A stretch of 64,000 bases of DNA from Deltaproteobacteria bacterium UBA2221. GTDB taxonomy: Bacteria; Desulfobacterota; Syntrophorhabdia; Syntrophorhabdales; WCHB1-27. The DNA lies in NCBI GenBank assembly GCA_002328485.1, contig DCUF01000082.1, forward strand, positions 14,533 through 78,532, written 5' to 3'. The position numbers and the translations under genes are program-made. The notes under the pieces are model-generated. The model was not told where the DNA came from. It saw only the letters and a list, made by a program, of their open reading frames with translations, and searched no databases. Below are positions 54,552-58,548 of this stretch, in pieces (the stretch's first letter is position 1; each line of letters starts with the position of its first letter).

Positions 54552-54580
54552 TTGACAAAAAAGCTGCAGCAATTTAGAGT
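54552..54580 (+). promoter_or_regulatory. Sigma70-like promoter positioned for a leaderless Rrf2 transcript
   Basis: TTGACA (54552-54557), a 17-nt spacer, then TAGAGT (54575-54580). ATG 54589 begins 8 nt after the -10 and has no SD. Confidence 0.4.
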
Positions 54581-54588
54581 AGGTTGTC

Positions 54589-55053
54589 ATGAAGATCTCG
54601 ACACAAAGCAGATACGGCCTCAGAGCGCTTTTCGACATCGCCTACCATTCGGCCTGCCGGTCGACGCAGGTGAAAGATATTGCCTCCAGACAGGCCATCT
54701 CCCCAAGATATATTGAACAGATATTCCAAAAGCTGAAGAAGGGTGGCCTCGTGAAGAGCATTCGGGGGCCGGCCGGTGGTTACTGCCTGACAAGAAAACC
54801 GGAAGAAATAACCATCGGAGATGTGGTCCGGGCCGCCGAAGGGCCTGTGCAGCTTGTCTCCTGTGGCGTTACCAGGACCGGCACAAAGGGCTGCGAGCGG
54901 GCAGCAGAATGCGTAACTACGGATATATGGAGAGAGGCATCGTCCCGCCTTATGTCCTATTTTGACTCTGTTACCTTAGATGATCTTTGCAAAGAGGCGC
55001 AAGCCAAGGGCGTAGAGAGGGCGGTCGACGAGCATCTCATGTACTACATCTGA
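54589..55053 (+). CDS. Rrf2-family transcriptional regulator
   Basis: MKISTQSRYGLRALFDIAYH...ISPRYIEQIFQKLKKGGLVKSIRGPAGGY is present. Three to four Cys occur in the C-terminal half (VSCGV...GCERAAECV). Confidence 0.85.
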   Translation: MKISTQSRYGLRALFDIAYHSACRSTQVKDIASRQAISPRYIEQIFQKLKKGGLVKSIRGPAGGYCLTRKPEEITIGDVVRAAEGPVQLVSCGVTRTGTKGCERAAECVTTDIWREASSRLMSYFDSVTLDDLCKEAQAKGVERAVDEHLMYYI

Positions 55054-55075: not shown

Positions 55076-56995
55076 ATGGAGACAAGGCACCTAGTATCTA
55101 TCGGCAGAAGGCTTTATCCTTTTCTCAAGGATCCCGAGGAAACCTTTCTCATCCAGTCTATCGAGACCCAAACGCTTTTTGTCTGCAACAAAGCCGGTGT
55201 TGTTGAGCGGTATACGGCGTCTACTTCACGCTTCGGTAATGGCAATCGAGAAGACTCTTACAAGACCCCCTTGGGGCTCCACAGGATCAAGGAGAAGATC
55301 GGGTCAGATGCGCCGTTGGGGCGGATCTTCAGGGATCGTATCGACACGGGCATAGACTGGGATCGGGCTTCGGTTGAGGATAATCTGATACTTACCCGCA
55401 TCTTGAGGCTTGAAGGTCTTGAAGAAGGCATCAACAAGGGTGAGGGCATCGATTCCTACGACCGATTCATCTACATCCACGGCACGGGCCGCGAGGATCT
55501 TGTCGGCATACCACTAACCCATGGATGCATAGCGCTGAGGAACGCCGACGTCGTGAGACTTTTCGAGACCGTAGAGGAGGGAATGCTCATCTATATCGAC
55601 GGACCTCCCCTGTCCATTGGCGAGATACCTTGCCGGAATATACATTTTGTGGGCATATTTGGCACCGGCATGAGTGCCCTGGCTCAGTATCTTCGATTTC
55701 AAGGGATTGTCGTCTCAGGATCTGATCGGCTTCTGGGTAGCGAAGACACGGCGGCCATGAGGCAGTCTCTCGAAGGGCTCGGTTGCACCATCCTCGACCA
55801 AAACGGTTCGGGTGTCACGGAGGATACTGATGCGGTCTGCGTATCAACAGCCATAGAAGAATCGAACCCCGATATTGTCTCGGCCCGCGGTGCCAGTATC
55901 CCGATCATTCATCGCTCTGACCTTCTGGCGGCTATCGTTGACACGAGGCGGGCAATCGCAGTCGCCGGGACAAGCGGTAAGTCAACGGTGACGGCGATGA
56001 TATTTGAGTTCCTGACAGCGTGTGGAAAATCCCCATCCCTCGTCAGCGGTGCCCCTTTGCGAAGGCTGGAAAGGCAAGGTCTGATCGGTAATGCGTGGAG
56101 CGGAGCCTCGGATCTATTGGTAATAGAGGCTGACGAGAGCGACGGAAGTCTTGTCAAATATTCCCCTGAGGCGTCGGTGGTTCTTAATATATCCAAGGAT
56201 CACAAGACAATCGACGAAATAAAGACGCTCTTTGAAAAACTCATTTCTCAGAGTTCATGGACTGCCCTCAATGGCGACGATGCCATCCTCGTCTCGCTTC
56301 CAGGGGCGGTCTCGTTTGGCCGAACCAGTTCGGCGTCGTGGCGATCGGATGACGAAAGGCTATTCCCTACCGCCGTTACCCTTCGCCGCAGGGGGGTTGA
56401 ATATTGTTTGTCCCTACCGGGAGCGCACAACCTCGAGAATCTCCGCGCGGCCCTTTGTGTCTGCGAGCATTTTGGCTGCGACGAAAAGGCCCTTTCAGAG
56501 GCTGTCAGGGGGTTCGAGGGCGTCGCCAGGCGCTTTGCCGTCACCGAGACTGGAGAAGGGGTGCACGTGATAGACGATTATGCCCATAATCCTGCAAAGA
56601 TAGCCGCTGCCGTGAATGCCGCAAGAGGGCTGTCGCAGCGAATCGTTGCAGTATACCAACCCCACGGCTTCGGCCCGACCCGATTCTTGAAAGATGAATA
56701 TATCAAAGGGTTTCAGGCCATTTTTCAGCCCGACGACTCGCTCTATCTTCTGCCTATCTATTATGCGGGGGGCACGGCTCAGAAGGACATTTCCTCGCAG
56801 GATATTATAGCCGGCCTGGGACCCGTCTCGTTTACAGCGGATGCGGTGACCGATCGCCATATCTTGCTGAGCAGGCTAAGCACCCATGTTAGACAGGGTG
56901 ACGCCGTCCTCGTCATGGGGGCCAGAGATCCATCACTGCCTGGCCTGGTGAACCAAATTGTGGAGCTCTTTGGCGGGAAAGCACCTGAACCTTAG
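55076..56995 (+). CDS. Fusion protein: N-terminal YkuD (L,D-transpeptidase-fold) domain plus C-terminal MurC/Mpl-type Mur ligase
   Basis: The YkuD motif is IYIHGTGRE...THGCIALRN (aa ~130-165), with no signal peptide or TM. It is followed by IHFVGIFGTGMSALAQYL (Mur ligase N-domain), AVAGTSGKSTVTAMI (P-loop), DESDGS and DDYAHNP. Confidence 0.8.
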   Translation: METRHLVSIGRRLYPFLKDPEETFLIQSIETQTLFVCNKAGVVERYTASTSRFGNGNREDSYKTPLGLHRIKEKIGSDAPLGRIFRDRIDTGIDWDRASVEDNLILTRILRLEGLEEGINKGEGIDSYDRFIYIHGTGREDLVGIPLTHGCIALRNADVVRLFETVEEGMLIYIDGPPLSIGEIPCRNIHFVGIFGTGMSALAQYLRFQGIVVSGSDRLLGSEDTAAMRQSLEGLGCTILDQNGSGVTEDTDAVCVSTAIEESNPDIVSARGASIPIIHRSDLLAAIVDTRRAIAVAGTSGKSTVTAMIFEFLTACGKSPSLVSGAPLRRLERQGLIGNAWSGASDLLVIEADESDGSLVKYSPEASVVLNISKDHKTIDEIKTLFEKLISQSSWTALNGDDAILVSLPGAVSFGRTSSASWRSDDERLFPTAVTLRRRGVEYCLSLPGAHNLENLRAALCVCEHFGCDEKALSEAVRGFEGVARRFAVTETGEGVHVIDDYAHNPAKIAAAVNAARGLSQRIVAVYQPHGFGPTRFLKDEYIKGFQAIFQPDDSLYLLPIYYAGGTAQKDISSQDIIAGLGPVSFTADAVTDRHILLSRLSTHVRQGDAVLVMGARDPSLPGLVNQIVELFGGKAPEP

Positions 56996-57144: not shown

Positions 57145-58176
57145 ATGAAGGTAGGTGTGATCAGGGATCCGATCTATCTGGAACATGTCGCCGATGAGTT
57201 CCATCCCGAAAATCCCGAAAGATTGCAAAGCATTTACGAAATGCTGGAGCGGCTTCCCCAGGAAGGGCTCGTCTATCTGACCCCCCGGTCTGCAACCCCT
57301 GAGGAGATCTGCCTGATCCACGACACCCGGTACCACGACGAGGTCGCTCAGACAGCCGGAAGAGCGTACACCCGGCTCGATCCTGATACGTCGACCTCAC
57401 CGAAATCCTATGAAGCTGCCTGCAAAGCAGTCGGCGGCACACTTGATCTGGCCGATGCCGTAATGAAGAGGGAGATTGACAATGGCATCGCCCTTATCCG
57501 CCCCCCAGGCCATCATGCCGAGAAGGACAGGGCAATGGGGTTCTGTCTCTTTAACAATATTGCCGTAGGGGCGCGTTACCTGGCCCAAAAGTATGAGCTG
57601 GAGCGTACGCTCCTCGTAGATTTCGATCTCCATCACGGAAACGGGACGCAGCACGCCTTTTACGAGGACCCAAGGGTGCTCTATTTCTCAACCCACCAAT
57701 ATCCTTACTATCCTGGCTCAGGATGGTACAGTGAGATCGGACGGGGAGAGGGGGAAGGCTATACAATCAATGTGCCGCTGACCTATGGCATGGGGGACGC
57801 TGACTACGGGTATATCTTCAACCAACTGCTGGTCCCGGTAGCGGACGCCTTCCACCCCCAGATCGTGCTCGTGTCCGCAGGTTTCGATATACACCGGGAT
57901 GATCCCCTGGGCGGGATGGCCGTGACCGAGGCCGGTTTTGCCAACATGACCAGAATCCTTCTCGATATCGCGTCACATCACTGCGGCGGGAAAATGCTTG
58001 TTGCTCTTGAAGGAGGATACGACGTGGTCGGTCTGACACGATCCGTCCAAGCCATGATCATGGAGATGAAAGGAACGTCCGTAAGCGAGCCCATACAGGA
58101 TGAACCCTGCAGGGGTGTGATGCAAACGGTTGCCAGCGTGAAGGATGTCTTGAGGTCGTTCTGGAAGACGCTTTAA
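57145..58176 (+). CDS. Histone deacetylase-family (AcuC/APAH-like) deacetylase
   Basis: RPPGHHA...DFDLHHGNGTQ...GFD is present. Confidence 0.85.
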   Translation: MKVGVIRDPIYLEHVADEFHPENPERLQSIYEMLERLPQEGLVYLTPRSATPEEICLIHDTRYHDEVAQTAGRAYTRLDPDTSTSPKSYEAACKAVGGTLDLADAVMKREIDNGIALIRPPGHHAEKDRAMGFCLFNNIAVGARYLAQKYELERTLLVDFDLHHGNGTQHAFYEDPRVLYFSTHQYPYYPGSGWYSEIGRGEGEGYTINVPLTYGMGDADYGYIFNQLLVPVADAFHPQIVLVSAGFDIHRDDPLGGMAVTEAGFANMTRILLDIASHHCGGKMLVALEGGYDVVGLTRSVQAMIMEMKGTSVSEPIQDEPCRGVMQTVASVKDVLRSFWKTL

Positions 58177-58454
58177 CCTTCCTTCCAGATAGCTTCTTTT
58201 AGTTCTTTGCCGACCTTAAAATAAGGCAGGCGCTTGGGTGGCACGTTCACCACCTCTCCGTTCTTGGGGTTTCTGCCTTTGTAGGGTTTGTAGCTTCTCA
58301 AAGAAAAGCTGCCGAATCCCCTGATCTCAACCCTGTCGCCCGTAACAATAGCCTGCTTTATGCTATCAATGATAGTATCTACCACGATTTTGGCTACCTT
58401 CTGATTGATGTTCGCCGTCTCAGAAAGTTTATTCACGATGTCTATTTTATTCAT
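58173..58454 (-). CDS. HU/IHF-family DNA-binding protein (IHF-beta-like)
   Basis: MNKIDIVNKL...VEIRGFGSFSLRSYKPYKGRNPKNGEVVNVPPKRLPYFKVGKEL is present. ATG 58454; the track start is 58496. Confidence 0.85.
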   Translation of the reverse strand: MNKIDIVNKLSETANINQKVAKIVVDTIIDSIKQAIVTGDRVEIRGFGSFSLRSYKPYKGRNPKNGEVVNVPPKRLPYFKVGKELKEAIWKEG

Positions 58455-58548
58455 TAGAGTGTCTCTCCTCTCATCCGTAGATTCAATCTGGGGCAAATTT
58501 TATCTGCTTTGCCAGCTAAGATGCAAGAGGAAAATTGAATTATTTTCA

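What the first reader, a model, noticed from the sequence alone, without database searches (positions are those of the whole stretch)
55076..56995. Signal-peptide-less YkuD (L,D-transpeptidase-fold) domain fused to a MurC/Mpl-type ligase, co-transcribed with an Rrf2 regulator
The first ~180 aa carry the YkuD catalytic signature (HGT...THGCIALRN) but have no signal peptide or TM segment. They are fused to a complete ATP-dependent Mur ligase (GIFGTGMSALA, AGTSGKST, DESDGS, DDYAHNP), which must be cytoplasmic. Canonical YkuD enzymes act on peptidoglycan in the periplasm.

YkuD-fold proteins are also known to work as L,D-carboxypeptidases (Csd6/Pgp2 type). A cytoplasmic L,D-carboxypeptidase (LdcA in E. 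coli, a different fold) acts immediately before Mpl in murein tetrapeptide recycling. The fusion could therefore be a one-polypeptide recycling module: the first domain trims tetrapeptide to tripeptide, and the second ligates the tripeptide to UDP-MurNAc. The Rrf2 regulator 22 nt upstream suggests dedicated control.
Basis: partly seen in the sequence, partly recalled or inferred. Interest (0 to 1): 0.65.

Follow-up and report, generated by a model that had tools for sequence, protein, structure and literature searches.

The report
Fused cell-wall peptide trimming-and-recycling enzyme
This gene encodes a real, conserved cytoplasmic fusion of an ElsL-like L,D-carboxypeptidase domain and a MurC-like ligase of a distinct, unnamed subfamily, and it most likely trims recycled cell-wall tetrapeptides and re-attaches them to UDP-MurNAc, a role so far known only for separate enzymes (LdcA or ElsL, then Mpl).

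Summary
ORF 55076-56995 (+) encodes 639 aa: a YkuD domain with no hydrophobic segment, then a complete three-domain Mur ligase.

It is not a frameshift artefact. All 120 best homologs and 80 species-level genome loci have the same architecture, including cultured Syntrophorhabdus aromaticivorans UI. A second clade (~43% identical) is fused in Holophaga and Geothrix.

It is not the cell's murC. Fourteen fusion-bearing assemblies also carry a canonical murC in dcw order.

The YkuD domain hits ElsL best, the known cytoplasmic recycling L,D-carboxypeptidase of Acinetobacter. His135 and Cys151 are conserved.

The ligase belongs to a distinct MurC-like subfamily. It scores below NCBI's murC and mpl cutoffs, has Pro in place of MurC's invariant Arg380, and lacks Mpl's AFFDKRSK insertion.

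The strongest evidence is contextual. This subfamily is fused or adjacent to ElsL-type YkuD in several phyla. In another clade it is fused or adjacent to the unrelated LdcA (S66) carboxypeptidase, next to an Slt lytic transglycosylase.

Rrf2 linkage is genus-level only. In Elusimicrobiota the subfamily may act as MurC. Verdict: new variant of a known kind, moderately interesting.

The parts
55076..56995 (+). Fusion gene, 639 aa: ElsL-like YkuD domain plus MurC-like ligase
   Evidence: ORF. Four Pfam domains. The same architecture in 120/120 homologs, in 80 genome loci, and in 120/120 Holophagaceae homologs.
55151..55597 (+). YkuD-fold domain (aa 26-174), predicted cytoplasmic L,D-carboxypeptidase
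   Evidence: PF03734, E 1.7e-16. Best NCBIfam hit is NF040925 ElsL: 125 bits, E 2e-36, covering profile positions 11-159 of 164, below the 270 cutoff. No hydrophobic segment.
55478..55528 (+). YkuD catalytic motif: His135 (HGT) through Thr-His-Gly-Cys151
   Evidence: His135, Gly150 and Cys151 are at least 97% conserved in 78 orthologs. They are invariant in the 49-sequence alignment spanning both fused clades. The H..[ST]HGC motif is present in 120/120 Holophagaceae proteins.
55598..55636 (+). Short linker (aa 175-187) between the two modules
   Evidence: This is the gap between the Pfam domain boundaries. It is modelled as short strands with pLDDT around 90 in the good AlphaFold model, whose pTM is 0.86.
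55637..55945 (+). Mur ligase N-terminal (UDP-MurNAc-binding) domain, aa 188-290, with the Gly-rich loop GIFGTGMS
   Evidence: PF01225, E 1.8e-12. Loop composition by family: fusions GIFG[ST]GMSA, canonical MurC GIGGxGMSG, E. coli Mpl GICGTFMGG.
55961..56464 (+). Mur ligase middle (ATP-binding) domain, aa 296-463, with P-loop GTSGKST (55967-55987), EADESD and NISKDH
   Evidence: PF08245. K302, E351, D353, E354, D375 and H376 are invariant across both fused clades. The P-loop differs systematically from canonical MurC's GTHGKTTT.
56528..56926 (+). Mur ligase C-terminal (incoming-substrate) domain, aa 485-617
   Evidence: PF02875, E 9e-15. The whole ligase superposes best on ligand-bound H. influenzae MurC 1P3D/1P31 (TM 0.84, rmsd 3.0 A). 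Mpl 3HN7 gives TM 0.69.
56573..56593 (+). Pocket motif DDYAHNP. MurC has DDY[GA]HHP
   Evidence: The second His (E. coli H355, H. influenzae H349) is His in 81/81 canonical MurC, Asn in 79/79 fusions, and Asn in 142/144 subfamily representatives.
56657..56683 (+). Pocket motif QPHGFGPTR. It replaces MurC's QPH[RTL][YF]xRT[RK], so the L-Ala-binding Arg380 (H. influenzae numbering) is Pro
   Evidence: Residue mapping, with residue roles taken from PMC3060825. Arg at E. coli R386 in 81/81 canonical MurC, against Pro in 78/79 fusions and 141/144 representatives. Arg380 is also kept in Roseburia faecis and M. bovis MurC structures.
56918..56938 (+). Subfamily-specific loop GARDPSL. MurC has GAG[DN]; Mpl has SNGGFGG
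   Evidence: Alignments. G-A-R-D is invariant in alignments A1 and A3. The equivalent Mpl loop (Ser483-Asn484-Gly485) is listed as an Mpl specificity element in PMC3060825.
54589..55053 (+). Rrf2-family regulator gene 22 nt upstream. It is a neighbour in this genus only, not a conserved part of the system
   Evidence: PF02082, E 1e-42. TIGR00738 superfamily is met; IscR scores 133 bits, below the 207 cutoff. The neighbour is kept in the 87% relative and absent in 80 other fusion loci. Cys92, Cys102 and Cys108 are present.
54552..54580 (+). Sigma-70-like promoter match (TTGACA-17-TAGAGT) upstream of Rrf2
   Evidence: Consensus scan, 10 of 12 matches. No terminator-like site lies between Rrf2 and the fusion gene. 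This is a pattern match only.

Best explanation
The gene encodes a cytoplasmic, bifunctional peptidoglycan-recycling enzyme.

The N-terminal ElsL-like YkuD domain uses Cys151 and His135 to remove the terminal D-alanine from recycled murein tetrapeptide (L-Ala-D-Glu-mDAP-D-Ala). The C-terminal ATP-dependent ligase joins the resulting tripeptide to UDP-MurNAc, giving UDP-MurNAc-tripeptide that re-enters synthesis at MurF. This is the job done in E. coli by LdcA and then Mpl, and in Acinetobacter by ElsL and then Mpl.

The order could also be reversed: ligate the tetrapeptide first, then trim UDP-MurNAc-tetrapeptide. Either way, the fusion would keep the toxic dead-end precursor UDP-MurNAc-tetrapeptide from escaping.

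The ligase is not the biosynthetic MurC and not an orthologue of proteobacterial Mpl. It belongs to a third, MurC-derived subfamily found in many phyla.

Shown here: the architecture; its conservation; the absence of any hydrophobic segment; conservation of catalytic residues in both modules; a separate dcw murC in the same genomes; subfamily-specific pocket residues; and recurrent fusion or adjacency with two unrelated L,D-carboxypeptidase families and with Slt.

Inferred: both enzymatic activities, the substrates, and the reaction order.
For: 1. Architecture and conservation.

2. The YkuD domain's best family is the cytoplasmic recycling carboxypeptidase ElsL (125 bits, E 2e-36). Periplasmic L,D-transpeptidase models reach only E ~1e-4. 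The same holds for Holophaga foetida (126 bits) and for the standalone Chitinispirillum partner (141 bits). ElsL's function and its position upstream of Mpl are experimentally established (PMC8649774).

3. There is no TM or signal-like segment. His135 and Cys151 are conserved.

4. It is not the cell's MurC.
- L038 has murD-murG-murC-murB-ddl-ftsQAZ followed by the fusion. The dcw MurC scores 543.7 bits on TIGR01082, against 287.5 for the window's fusion.
- 13 further assemblies hold both genes, and every canonical copy is in dcw order.
- None of 238 subfamily loci lies inside a dcw cluster.

5. The substrate pocket differs. Arg380 becomes Pro, His349 becomes Asn, and GAGD becomes GARD, in essentially all subfamily members. 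Arg380 is invariant in MurC from Proteobacteria, Desulfobacterota, Firmicutes and Actinobacteria. Losing the arginine that binds the free carboxylate of L-Ala fits a substrate whose L-Ala carboxyl is in peptide linkage.

6. Gene-fusion and neighbourhood evidence.
- ElsL-like YkuD is fused to this ligase in 9 non-Syntrophorhabdales genome loci. It is an abutting upstream gene in 7 others, across Holophagae, Fibrobacterota, Eisenbacteria and Krumholzibacteriia.
- In another clade the same ligase subfamily is fused to LdcA/Peptidase_S66 (P0264, P0410, P0411), or is followed within 3-46 nt by a separate S66 gene in 12 of 14 informative loci. An Slt lytic transglycosylase lies divergently upstream in 12 of 14.
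Against: - No biochemical or genetic data exist for any member.
- By overall sequence and fold the ligase is closer to MurC than to Mpl (TIGR01082 287 vs TIGR01081 98 bits; Foldseek TM 0.84 vs 0.69). It lacks Mpl's AFFDKRSK insertion.
- Subfamily monophyly has only moderate support (26/50 NJ bootstraps).
- In about 115 subfamily loci from Bacteroidota, Elusimicrobiota and Planctomycetota, no carboxypeptidase gene abuts the ligase. The nearest is an S66 gene 4.5 kb away in one Bacteroidales locus.
- In one Elusimicrobiota locus the ligase sits in a dapA-asd-dapB operon beside genuine murD and murE. There it could be the working MurC, and if so the Gly/Pro pocket would be compatible with L-Ala.
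- I could not check whether fusion-bearing genomes lack canonical mpl or ldcA, or whether they possess ampG, nagZ and ampD.
- Arg377, the other L-Ala-binding arginine, is not universal in MurC, so only Arg380 is a firm discriminator.
Confidence: 0.6

Rival explanations
1. The ligase is a second, divergent MurC isozyme that still adds L-alanine (or glycine or L-serine) to UDP-MurNAc. The fused carboxypeptidase merely co-localises a recycling step with the first step of de novo peptide-stem synthesis.
For: The best HMM and the best structural matches are MurC. Some subfamily members just pass NCBI's murC cutoff (337-344 bits). The Elusimicrobiota context has dap genes and real murD/murE beside the ligase. 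Natural Mur chimeras that join non-consecutive steps are known (PMC10214165).
Against: Arg380, invariant in every canonical MurC examined, is Pro. A canonical dcw MurC coexists in the same genomes. This reading does not explain why two unrelated L,D-carboxypeptidase families, and Slt, are repeatedly fused or adjacent to this particular ligase subfamily.
Confidence: 0.13
2. The YkuD domain does not act as a hydrolytic carboxypeptidase. Instead it acts as an L,D-transpeptidase-type exchange enzyme in the cytoplasm, swapping the terminal D-Ala of a (UDP-MurNAc-)tetrapeptide for another amino acid. The fusion would then make modified precursors rather than simply recycling.
For: YkuD enzymes catalyse both exchange and hydrolysis through the same acyl-enzyme intermediate (general knowledge of the family). 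The catalytic His and Cys are intact. The ElsL match is below the family cutoff (125 vs 270 bits), so functional identity with ElsL is not established.
Against: ElsL is by far the best-matching family (E 2e-36, against ~1e-4 for the transpeptidase models). The equivalent partner in another clade is LdcA/S66, a serine hydrolase with carboxypeptidase activity only. This points to carboxypeptidase as the shared coupled activity.
Confidence: 0.08
3. The ligase attaches a peptide or amino acid to an acceptor other than UDP-MurNAc, or serves a non-peptidoglycan polymer or metabolite. The carboxypeptidase would then process a different D-amino-acid-containing peptide.
For: Mur-ligase-fold enzymes have been recruited to other pathways: FolC, cyanophycin synthetase, CfbE, MurT and pseudomurein ligases all appear as weak hits. 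One subfamily member is fused to a class II aminoacyl-tRNA-synthetase-like domain (P0269).
Against: The N-terminal UDP-binding Gly-rich loop and the GSD motif are conserved, as in MurC and Mpl. The fold superposes on UDP-MurNAc-bound MurC. Both partner families, and the Slt neighbour, are peptidoglycan-specific.
Confidence: 0.07
4. The fusion is an artefact: a sequencing frameshift or mis-assembly has joined two genes.
For: None found. In some other phyla the two genes are separate but abutting, which shows that a split form exists in nature.
Against: A single uninterrupted ORF. Full-length fusions in 120/120 best homologs, in 80 species genomes including a cultured isolate, and in 120/120 Holophagaceae proteins including complete Geothrix genomes. 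An independent run reproduces the local sequence.
Confidence: 0.01

Closest known systems
ElsL of Acinetobacter baumannii (NCBIfam NF040925; Dai et al. 2021, mBio, PMC8649774)
   Same: A YkuD-fold protein with no signal peptide. It is the best-scoring family for the N-terminal domain (E 2e-36, nearly full-length match). The catalytic Cys/His motif is retained. In A. baumannii, ElsL trims cytoplasmic tetrapeptides so that Mpl re-uses tripeptide, which is exactly the coupling implied by the fusion.
   Different: The score of 125 bits is well below the 270-bit family cutoff, so this is a distant relative and not an orthologue. ElsL is a free-standing protein of ~165 aa that works with a separate, canonical Mpl. 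Here the domain is covalently fused to a non-Mpl ligase. The motif reads THGCIALRN (SHGCLALRN in most orthologs) rather than the classical SHGC[IL]R[ML], which the Holophaga clade retains.
Mpl, murein peptide ligase (TIGR01081; E. coli b4233; P. arcticus structure 3HN7, PMC3060825)
   Same: The proposed reaction is the same: ATP-dependent ligation of recycled L-Ala-D-Glu-mDAP to UDP-MurNAc. It is a three-domain Mur ligase related to MurC. Like Mpl, it lacks the MurC arginine pair in the C-terminal domain. It is functionally downstream of an L,D-carboxypeptidase.
   Different: Only 98.5 bits on TIGR01081 (cutoff 388.7), and ~30% identity to E. coli Mpl. It lacks the Mpl-specific (S/T)AFFDKRSK insertion, the GI(C/G)GTFM Phe, EPRSNTM and SNGGFGG elements. 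It branches separately from Mpl and from MurC.
MurC, UDP-N-acetylmuramate:L-alanine ligase (TIGR01082; structures 1P3D, 2F00, 9IR5, 7BVA)
   Same: MurC is the best overall sequence and fold match (287.5 bits; TM 0.84 to 1P3D). The domain order and the ATP/Mg and UDP-binding motifs are the same.
   Different: It scores below the curated cutoff (335.1), and it is not in the dcw cluster. It coexists with a canonical MurC (544 bits). Arg380 is Pro, the HHP motif is HNP, GAGD is GARD, and the P-loop is GTSGKST rather than GTHGKTT. It also has small subfamily-specific insertions and deletions.
LdcA, muramoyltetrapeptide carboxypeptidase (Peptidase_S66; NF008424)
   Same: The proposed activity of the N-terminal domain is the same: cytoplasmic L,D-carboxypeptidase in recycling. 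In another clade, LdcA occupies the equivalent partner position, fused or adjacent to the same ligase subfamily.
   Different: LdcA has an unrelated fold and mechanism (a Ser-His-Glu hydrolase, against a Cys-His YkuD). In those fusions it sits C-terminal to the ligase, not N-terminal.
Natural Mur chimeras (MurE-MurF, MurC-Ddl, MurC-MurB, MurG-MurC, MurD-FtsW; PNAS 2023, PMC10214165)
   Same: A Mur ligase covalently fused to another cell-wall enzyme.
   Different: That survey lists no YkuD-ligase or ligase-LdcA chimera. The known chimeras join biosynthetic dcw enzymes. This one joins two predicted recycling steps and lies outside the dcw cluster.

Membership tests
YkuD / L,D-transpeptidase catalytic domain (Pfam PF03734) | HMM match above the gathering threshold | tested here: met
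   61.6 bits against a cutoff of 23.4; aa 26-174 cover profile positions 5-146 of 146.
YkuD / L,D-transpeptidase catalytic domain (Pfam PF03734) | Catalytic His ... [S/T]-H-G-C motif | tested here: met
   His135 and THGC148-151 are present. They are conserved in at least 97% of 78 orthologs and are invariant across both fused clades.
Canonical periplasmic L,D-transpeptidase (LdtA-E/YbiS type) | Export signal or membrane anchor placing the domain at the sacculus | tested here: not met
   No hydrophobic segment (maximum KD19 1.14). The domain is fused to an ATP-dependent ligase. The NCBIfam L,D-transpeptidase models reach only E 1e-4 to 7e-3.
ElsL cell-wall-recycling L,D-carboxypeptidase (NCBIfam NF040925) | HMM score at or above the curated cutoff (270 bits) | tested here: not met
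   125.1 bits, E 2.2e-36. ElsL is the best family for this domain and the match is nearly full-length (11-159 of 164), but it is below the cutoff.
ElsL cell-wall-recycling L,D-carboxypeptidase (NCBIfam NF040925) | Cytoplasmic location (no signal peptide) | tested here: met
   Hydropathy profile, and fusion to a cytoplasmic ATP-dependent ligase.
ElsL cell-wall-recycling L,D-carboxypeptidase (NCBIfam NF040925) | L,D-carboxypeptidase activity on murein tetrapeptide | not testable with these tools
   This needs an enzyme assay. Indirect support: the equivalent partner in another clade is LdcA.
Mur ligase superfamily | Three domains (N, M, C) with the P-loop, Mg-binding Glu and His, and the C-domain DDxxH motif | tested here: met
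   PF01225, PF08245 and PF02875 are all above cutoff. K302, E351, H376, R485, R486, D500, D501 and H504 are invariant. The fold matches MurC.
MurC (TIGR01082 equivalog) | HMM score at or above the curated cutoff (335.1 bits) | tested here: not met
   287.5 bits. The dcw MurC of a fusion-bearing genome scores 543.7.
MurC (TIGR01082 equivalog) | L-Ala-binding residues of the C-terminal domain (H. influenzae Tyr346, His348, His376, Arg377, Arg380) | tested here: not met
   The positions of Tyr346, His348 and His376 are kept. Arg377 is Gly and Arg380 is Pro. Arg380 is invariant in 81 canonical MurC and in all the solved MurC sequences I aligned (E. coli, H. influenzae, A. baumannii, Y. pestis, R. 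faecis, M. bovis). It is Pro in 78/79 fusions.
MurC (TIGR01082 equivalog) | Location in the dcw cluster, as the genome's UDP-MurNAc:L-Ala ligase | tested here: not met
   The window contains no dcw genes. 14 assemblies with the fusion have a separate murC in murG-murC-murB order.
Mpl (TIGR01081 equivalog) | HMM score at or above the curated cutoff (388.7 bits) | tested here: not met
   98.5 bits, and the match is fragmented. PDB Mpl 3HN7 scores 66.6 bits, against 187 for MurC.
Mpl (TIGR01081 equivalog) | Mpl-specific motifs: the (S/T)AFFDKRSK insertion, GI(C/G)GTFM, EPRSNT, S-N-G (PMC3060825) | tested here: not met
   The insertion is absent. The loop reads GIFGTGMS (Gly where Mpl has Phe). 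The other two elements read QPHGFGPTR and GARDPSL.
Mpl (TIGR01081 equivalog) | Ligates murein tri-, tetra- or pentapeptide to UDP-MurNAc | not testable with these tools
   This is inferred only, from the pocket changes and from linkage to two L,D-carboxypeptidase families and to Slt.
Rrf2 transcription factor (upstream neighbour) | PF02082 / TIGR00738 match above cutoff | tested here: met
   145.9 bits (Pfam) and 136.9 bits (TIGR00738, cutoff 73.3). It is below the cutoffs for IscR, CymR and NsrR.
Rrf2 transcription factor (upstream neighbour) | Conserved association with the fusion gene, as expected for a dedicated regulator | tested here: not met
   Present only in the 87%-identical relative. 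Absent within 10 kb in 80 other fusion loci and in Geothrix.

The most novel reading that the evidence does not exclude
The ligase half represents a third functional class of UDP-MurNAc ligase that has not been recognised. On this reading it is a murein-peptide ligase that arose from MurC independently of proteobacterial Mpl. It would be the 'missing Mpl' of many phyla: Desulfobacterota/Syntrophorhabdia, Acidobacteriota/Holophagae, Fibrobacterota, Bacteroidota, Elusimicrobiota, Planctomycetota, and gut 'Alphaproteobacteria' MAGs.

Evolution has repeatedly welded it to whichever cytoplasmic L,D-carboxypeptidase the lineage owns, ElsL-type or LdcA-type. That would let tetrapeptide be channelled straight to UDP-MurNAc-tripeptide, so the toxic tetrapeptide precursor never accumulates.
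Probability: 0.45. Interest if true: 0.7.

Novelty: new variant of a known kind. Interest (0 to 1): 0.6.

Why it matters
Recycling of peptidoglycan peptide (L,D-carboxypeptidase, then Mpl) is well understood only in a few Proteobacteria. Many other bacteria appear to lack LdcA, Mpl or both. Recent papers explicitly leave this gap open (ElsL paper, PMC8649774; Caulobacter, PMC13046382).

If this reading is right, three things follow.
1. A large set of proteins now annotated as 'UDP-N-acetylmuramate--alanine ligase', 'Mur ligase family protein' or 'L,D-transpeptidase family protein' are in fact recycling ligases. That would correct annotation across at least seven phyla.
2. The fusions give a natural one-protein system for studying how cells avoid making the toxic UDP-MurNAc-tetrapeptide.
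3. The Arg380-to-Pro, HNP and GARD signature gives a simple sequence rule for telling recycling ligases from biosynthetic MurC.

The hypothesis is directly testable, because cultured organisms carry the fusion: Syntrophorhabdus aromaticivorans UI, Holophaga foetida DSM 6591, and several Geothrix species.

Tried and rejected
- **Frameshift or assembly artefact.** Rejected.
- **Only MurC in the genome.** Rejected for this lineage. 14 assemblies have both genes, and the canonical copy is in dcw order.
- **Rrf2 as a dedicated regulator.** Rejected as a conserved feature. No Rfam element lies in the region.
- **Conserved operon partners of the fusion in Syntrophorhabdales.** None found. The largest neighbour cluster is in 8 of 80 loci.
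- **RNA evidence for expression or co-transcription.** Only three metatranscriptome runs came up, all from a related study, and they gave only chance matches of about 35 nt.
- **First AlphaFold model, from close homologs only.** It was poor (pLDDT 68) and I discarded it. The second model is good (pLDDT 85.9).
- **Arg377 as a MurC discriminator.** Dropped after finding Thr or Leu there in R. faecis and M. bovis MurC.
- **Frankia 'MurC2' as a possible relative.** It is a dcw-linked working MurC, and nothing ties it to this subfamily.
- **Literature searches for a described YkuD-Mur ligase or ligase-LdcA fusion.** Nothing found.
- **S66/LdcA or Slt beside the ligase in the Syntrophorhabdales, Bacteroidota, Elusimicrobiota or Planctomycetota loci.** Not found, apart from one Bacteroidales locus at 4.5 kb.
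- **Not possible with these tools.** I could not scan whole genomes for mpl, ldcA, ampG, nagZ or ampD. I could not locate the canonical murC of S. aromaticivorans UI specifically.

Full report
**1. What is in the sequence**

The window has one uninterrupted ORF at 55076..56995 on the + strand, 639 aa.

Pfam places a YkuD domain at aa 26-174, and the three Mur-ligase domains at 188-290, 296-463 and 485-617. All four are above their gathering thresholds.

The protein has no hydrophobic stretch. The highest 19-residue Kyte-Doolittle mean is 1.14. Together with the fusion to an ATP-dependent ligase, this makes a cytoplasmic location the only reasonable reading.

An Rrf2-family gene (54589..55053) ends 22 nt upstream. 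The window contains no other Mur ligase or YkuD gene and no dcw genes. GC content around the gene is unremarkable.

**2. The fusion is real and conserved**

- The 120 best database homologs (70-87% identical) all carry the four domains. Sources name them 'UDP-N-acetylmuramate--alanine ligase' or 'L,D-transpeptidase family protein'.
- Eighty species-representative genomes encode it over its full length, including the cultured Syntrophorhabdus aromaticivorans UI. The rest are Syntrophorhabdales-like MAGs under inconsistent NCBI labels.
- A second fused clade, about 43% identical, fills the Holophagaceae: Holophaga foetida DSM 6591 and several cultured Geothrix species. All 120 hits have four domains.
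- An independent metagenome run reproduces the local sequence.

A frameshift artefact is excluded.

**3. It is not the cell's MurC**

NCBI's murC model gives 287.5 bits, below its 335.1 cutoff. The mpl model gives only 98.5, against a cutoff of 388.7.

In locus L038 the fusion gene lies just downstream of a complete murD-(ftsW)murG-murC-murB-ddl-ftsQ-ftsA-ftsZ cluster. That cluster's MurC scores 543.7 bits and is only 31.6% identical to the window's ligase domain.

I used that MurC as a probe. Thirteen further assemblies that carry the fusion also carry a canonical murC, twice on the same contig. Every one of these copies sits in dcw order.

**4. The N-terminal domain**

Its best family by far is NF040925, ElsL (125 bits, E 2e-36, nearly full-length). 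Periplasmic L,D-transpeptidase models reach only E ~1e-4.

ElsL is the cytoplasmic YkuD-fold L,D-carboxypeptidase of Acinetobacter baumannii. It converts imported tetrapeptide to tripeptide for Mpl, and its loss leads to toxic tetrapeptide precursors (PMC8649774). A cytoplasmic YkuD that stands in for LdcA is therefore already established biology.

The score is below the 270-bit cutoff, so this is an ElsL-like relative and not an orthologue.

His135 and Cys151 are at least 97% conserved in 78 orthologs. They are invariant across both fused clades.

**5. The ligase is a distinct subfamily**

An exhaustive search with the ligase part alone returned 150 clusters at 50% identity, all scoring above 258 bits at 33-63% identity. 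Most are standalone proteins of ~450-470 aa. They are closer than canonical MurC, which is ~34% identical over aligned columns. Those I sampled score near or below the murC cutoff. Where sources name them, the names are 'Mur ligase family protein', 'hypothetical protein' or MurC.

The Mpl structure paper lists the MurC residues that bind the incoming L-alanine: H. influenzae Tyr346, His348, His376, Arg377 and Arg380. It also lists the Mpl-specific motifs (PMC3060825). I mapped these through a residue-level alignment to HiMurC, and then through an alignment of 79 fusions, 81 canonical MurC and 144 representatives.

- Arg380 is Arg in 81/81 canonical MurC. It is Pro in 78/79 fusions and in 141/144 representatives.
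- The HHP histidine is Asn in all fusions and in 142/144 representatives.
- Arg377 is Gly in the subfamily.

Solved MurC structures from Roseburia faecis (Firmicutes) and Mycobacterium bovis have Thr or Leu at position 377 but keep Arg380, HHP and GAG[DN]. The firm discriminators are therefore Arg380 to Pro, His349 to Asn, and GAGD to GARD.

The subfamily lacks Mpl's AFFDKRSK insertion and its EPRSNTM and SNGGFGG elements.

In a neighbour-joining tree the subfamily is monophyletic. Bootstrap support is moderate for the subfamily (26/50) and full for canonical MurC (50/50). The window's ligase is ~30% identical to E. coli Mpl.

A good AlphaFold model (pLDDT 85.9, pTM 0.86) superposes best on ligand-bound H. 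influenzae MurC (TM 0.84). Mpl 3HN7 gives TM 0.69.

ATP-, Mg- and UDP-binding residues are invariant, so the ligase is probably active.

Arg380 contacts the incoming L-Ala. Losing it fits a substrate whose L-Ala carboxyl is in peptide linkage. This is an inference.

**6. Genomic associations: the strongest evidence**

*a. Sample around a standalone member.* I sampled 79 genome loci. The subfamily occurs in Armatimonadota, Acidobacteriota, Eisenbacteria, Krumholzibacteriia, Fibrobacterota, Bacteroidota, Elusimicrobiota, Planctomycetota and MAGs labelled 'Alphaproteobacteria'. It is never inside a dcw cluster. An ElsL-like YkuD sequence is fused in 9 non-Syntrophorhabdales loci. It is a separate, abutting upstream gene on the same strand in 7 more. 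The standalone partner again hits ElsL best (141 bits).

*b. Other long members.* Among unusually long subfamily members, P0264 is fused at its C-terminus to Peptidase_S66, the LdcA-type L,D-carboxypeptidase. That is a different fold with the same activity. The fusion recurs in P0410 and in the 45%-identical P0411.

*c. The standalone relatives of those fusions.* These are followed within 4 nt by a separate S66 gene, whose best NCBIfam hit is muramoyltetrapeptide carboxypeptidase. An Slt-type lytic transglycosylase lies divergently upstream. In a genome sample of that clade, S66 lies 3-46 nt downstream in 12 of 14 informative loci, and Slt lies upstream in 12 of 14. These ligases carry the same HNP, QPHG..P and GARD signature.

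One ligase subfamily is thus joined, by fusion and by operon, to two unrelated enzymes that share L,D-carboxypeptidase activity. It also sits beside the enzyme that releases anhydromuropeptides. This is hard to explain unless the ligase acts on the product, or the substrate, of that carboxypeptidase, which means in murein-peptide recycling.

**7. Caveats**

- In Bacteroidota, Elusimicrobiota and Planctomycetota loci no carboxypeptidase gene is adjacent. The closest is one Bacteroidales S66 gene at 4.5 kb.
- In one Elusimicrobiota locus the ligase follows dapA-asd-dapB and converges on genuine murE and murD. In that phylum it might be the working MurC, which would weaken the pocket argument.
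- I could not survey whole genomes for canonical mpl, ldcA, or the importer and amidase genes.
- No activity has been measured for any member.

**8. The Rrf2 neighbour**

The block M24 peptidase-RadA-Rrf2-fusion-deacetylase-HU-CcsA-ResB is kept in the 87%-identical relative. None of these neighbours accompanies the fusion in 80 more distant loci. No neighbour of any kind is shared by more than 8 of those 80. Geothrix has PAP2, DAGK and MazG family genes instead.

In the window a promoter-like site precedes Rrf2, and no terminator-like site lies in the 22-nt gap. No Rfam element is present. No informative RNA data exist.

Co-transcription is plausible in this genus. 'Dedicated control' is not supported.

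**9. Comparison with what is known, and verdict**

The pathway logic (L,D-carboxypeptidase, then peptide ligase) is known from E. coli (LdcA, Mpl) and A. baumannii (ElsL, Mpl).

Three things appear to be undescribed:
- the covalent fusions: YkuD-ligase, and also ligase-LdcA;
- the recognition that the ligase is a separate MurC-derived subfamily with its own pocket signature;
- its wide distribution.

A 2023 survey of natural Mur chimeras lists neither fusion. Searches of the ElsL papers, a 2025 L,D-transpeptidase review, recent recycling papers, and 'MurC2/MurC-like' terms found nothing.

I file it as a new variant of a known kind. My confidence is 0.6 that it is a bifunctional recycling enzyme of the kind described. 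The main rival is a second L-Ala-adding MurC (0.13).

It is moderately interesting. It could supply the 'missing' Mpl/LdcA step in many phyla and correct widespread annotation. It can also be tested immediately in cultured organisms.

Noticed in passing
P0269 (representative protein; 754 aa): A member of the same ligase subfamily is fused at its C-terminus to a class II aminoacyl-tRNA-synthetase-like domain (PF00152 tRNA-synt_2, E 5e-36). No explanation is offered.
   Followed up: no
L185:3555-10416 (Elusimicrobiota-like MAG): There is an apparent dapA-asd-dapB-ligase operon with overlapping stops and starts. It converges on genuine murD (381 bits) and murE (511 bits). In this phylum the subfamily may be the working MurC. 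Other Elusimicrobiota loci in a second sample lack these neighbours.
   Followed up: partly
L022:11883-12650, L040:10432-11178 and one further locus: An ORF of ~248 aa lies directly downstream of the fusion gene on the same strand in three Syntrophorhabdales-like loci. By eye it resembles an S51 (PepE/cyanophycinase-type) peptidase. This was not checked against any HMM library.
   Followed up: no
L001-L080 record titles: Genomes whose fusion protein is 61-74% identical to the window's are labelled variously as Nitrospirota, Syntrophus, Deltaproteobacteria, Betaproteobacteria, Syntrophorhabdales, Chitinispirillaceae or Fibrobacteres. Many of these MAG labels are probably wrong or outdated.
   Followed up: no
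window 54589-55053: The Rrf2 protein has Cys92, Cys102 and Cys108 (C-X9-C-X5-C). This spacing is reminiscent of the Fe-S cluster ligands of IscR/NsrR-type Rrf2 regulators. It scores below the IscR, CymR and NsrR cutoffs.
   Followed up: partly
L243:8377-9875 (Geothrix sp. PMB-07) and L245:635-1420: Genes linked to lipid-carrier metabolism sit near the recycling ligase in two unrelated lineages. These are PAP2 phosphatase and DAGK_prokar next to the Geothrix fusion, and BacA near the ligase-LdcA pair. This may be chance.
   Followed up: no
L061:10001-11797 and L073:10001-11752: In two loci the tblastn match to the fusion protein stops about 35-50 aa before the C-terminus. These copies may be truncated or frameshifted.
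   Followed up: no
L224:625-1482 (Bacteroidales MAG): An S66/LdcA-like gene lies 4.5 kb upstream of a standalone subfamily ligase. This is the only such case among the Bacteroidota loci examined.
   Followed up: no
window 57145-58496: A histone-deacetylase-family gene (PF00850, E 3e-100) follows the fusion gene. Its stop overlaps by 4 nt the stop of a convergent HU/IHF-like gene (58173-58496, - strand). The arrangement is kept in the 87% relative.
   Followed up: no
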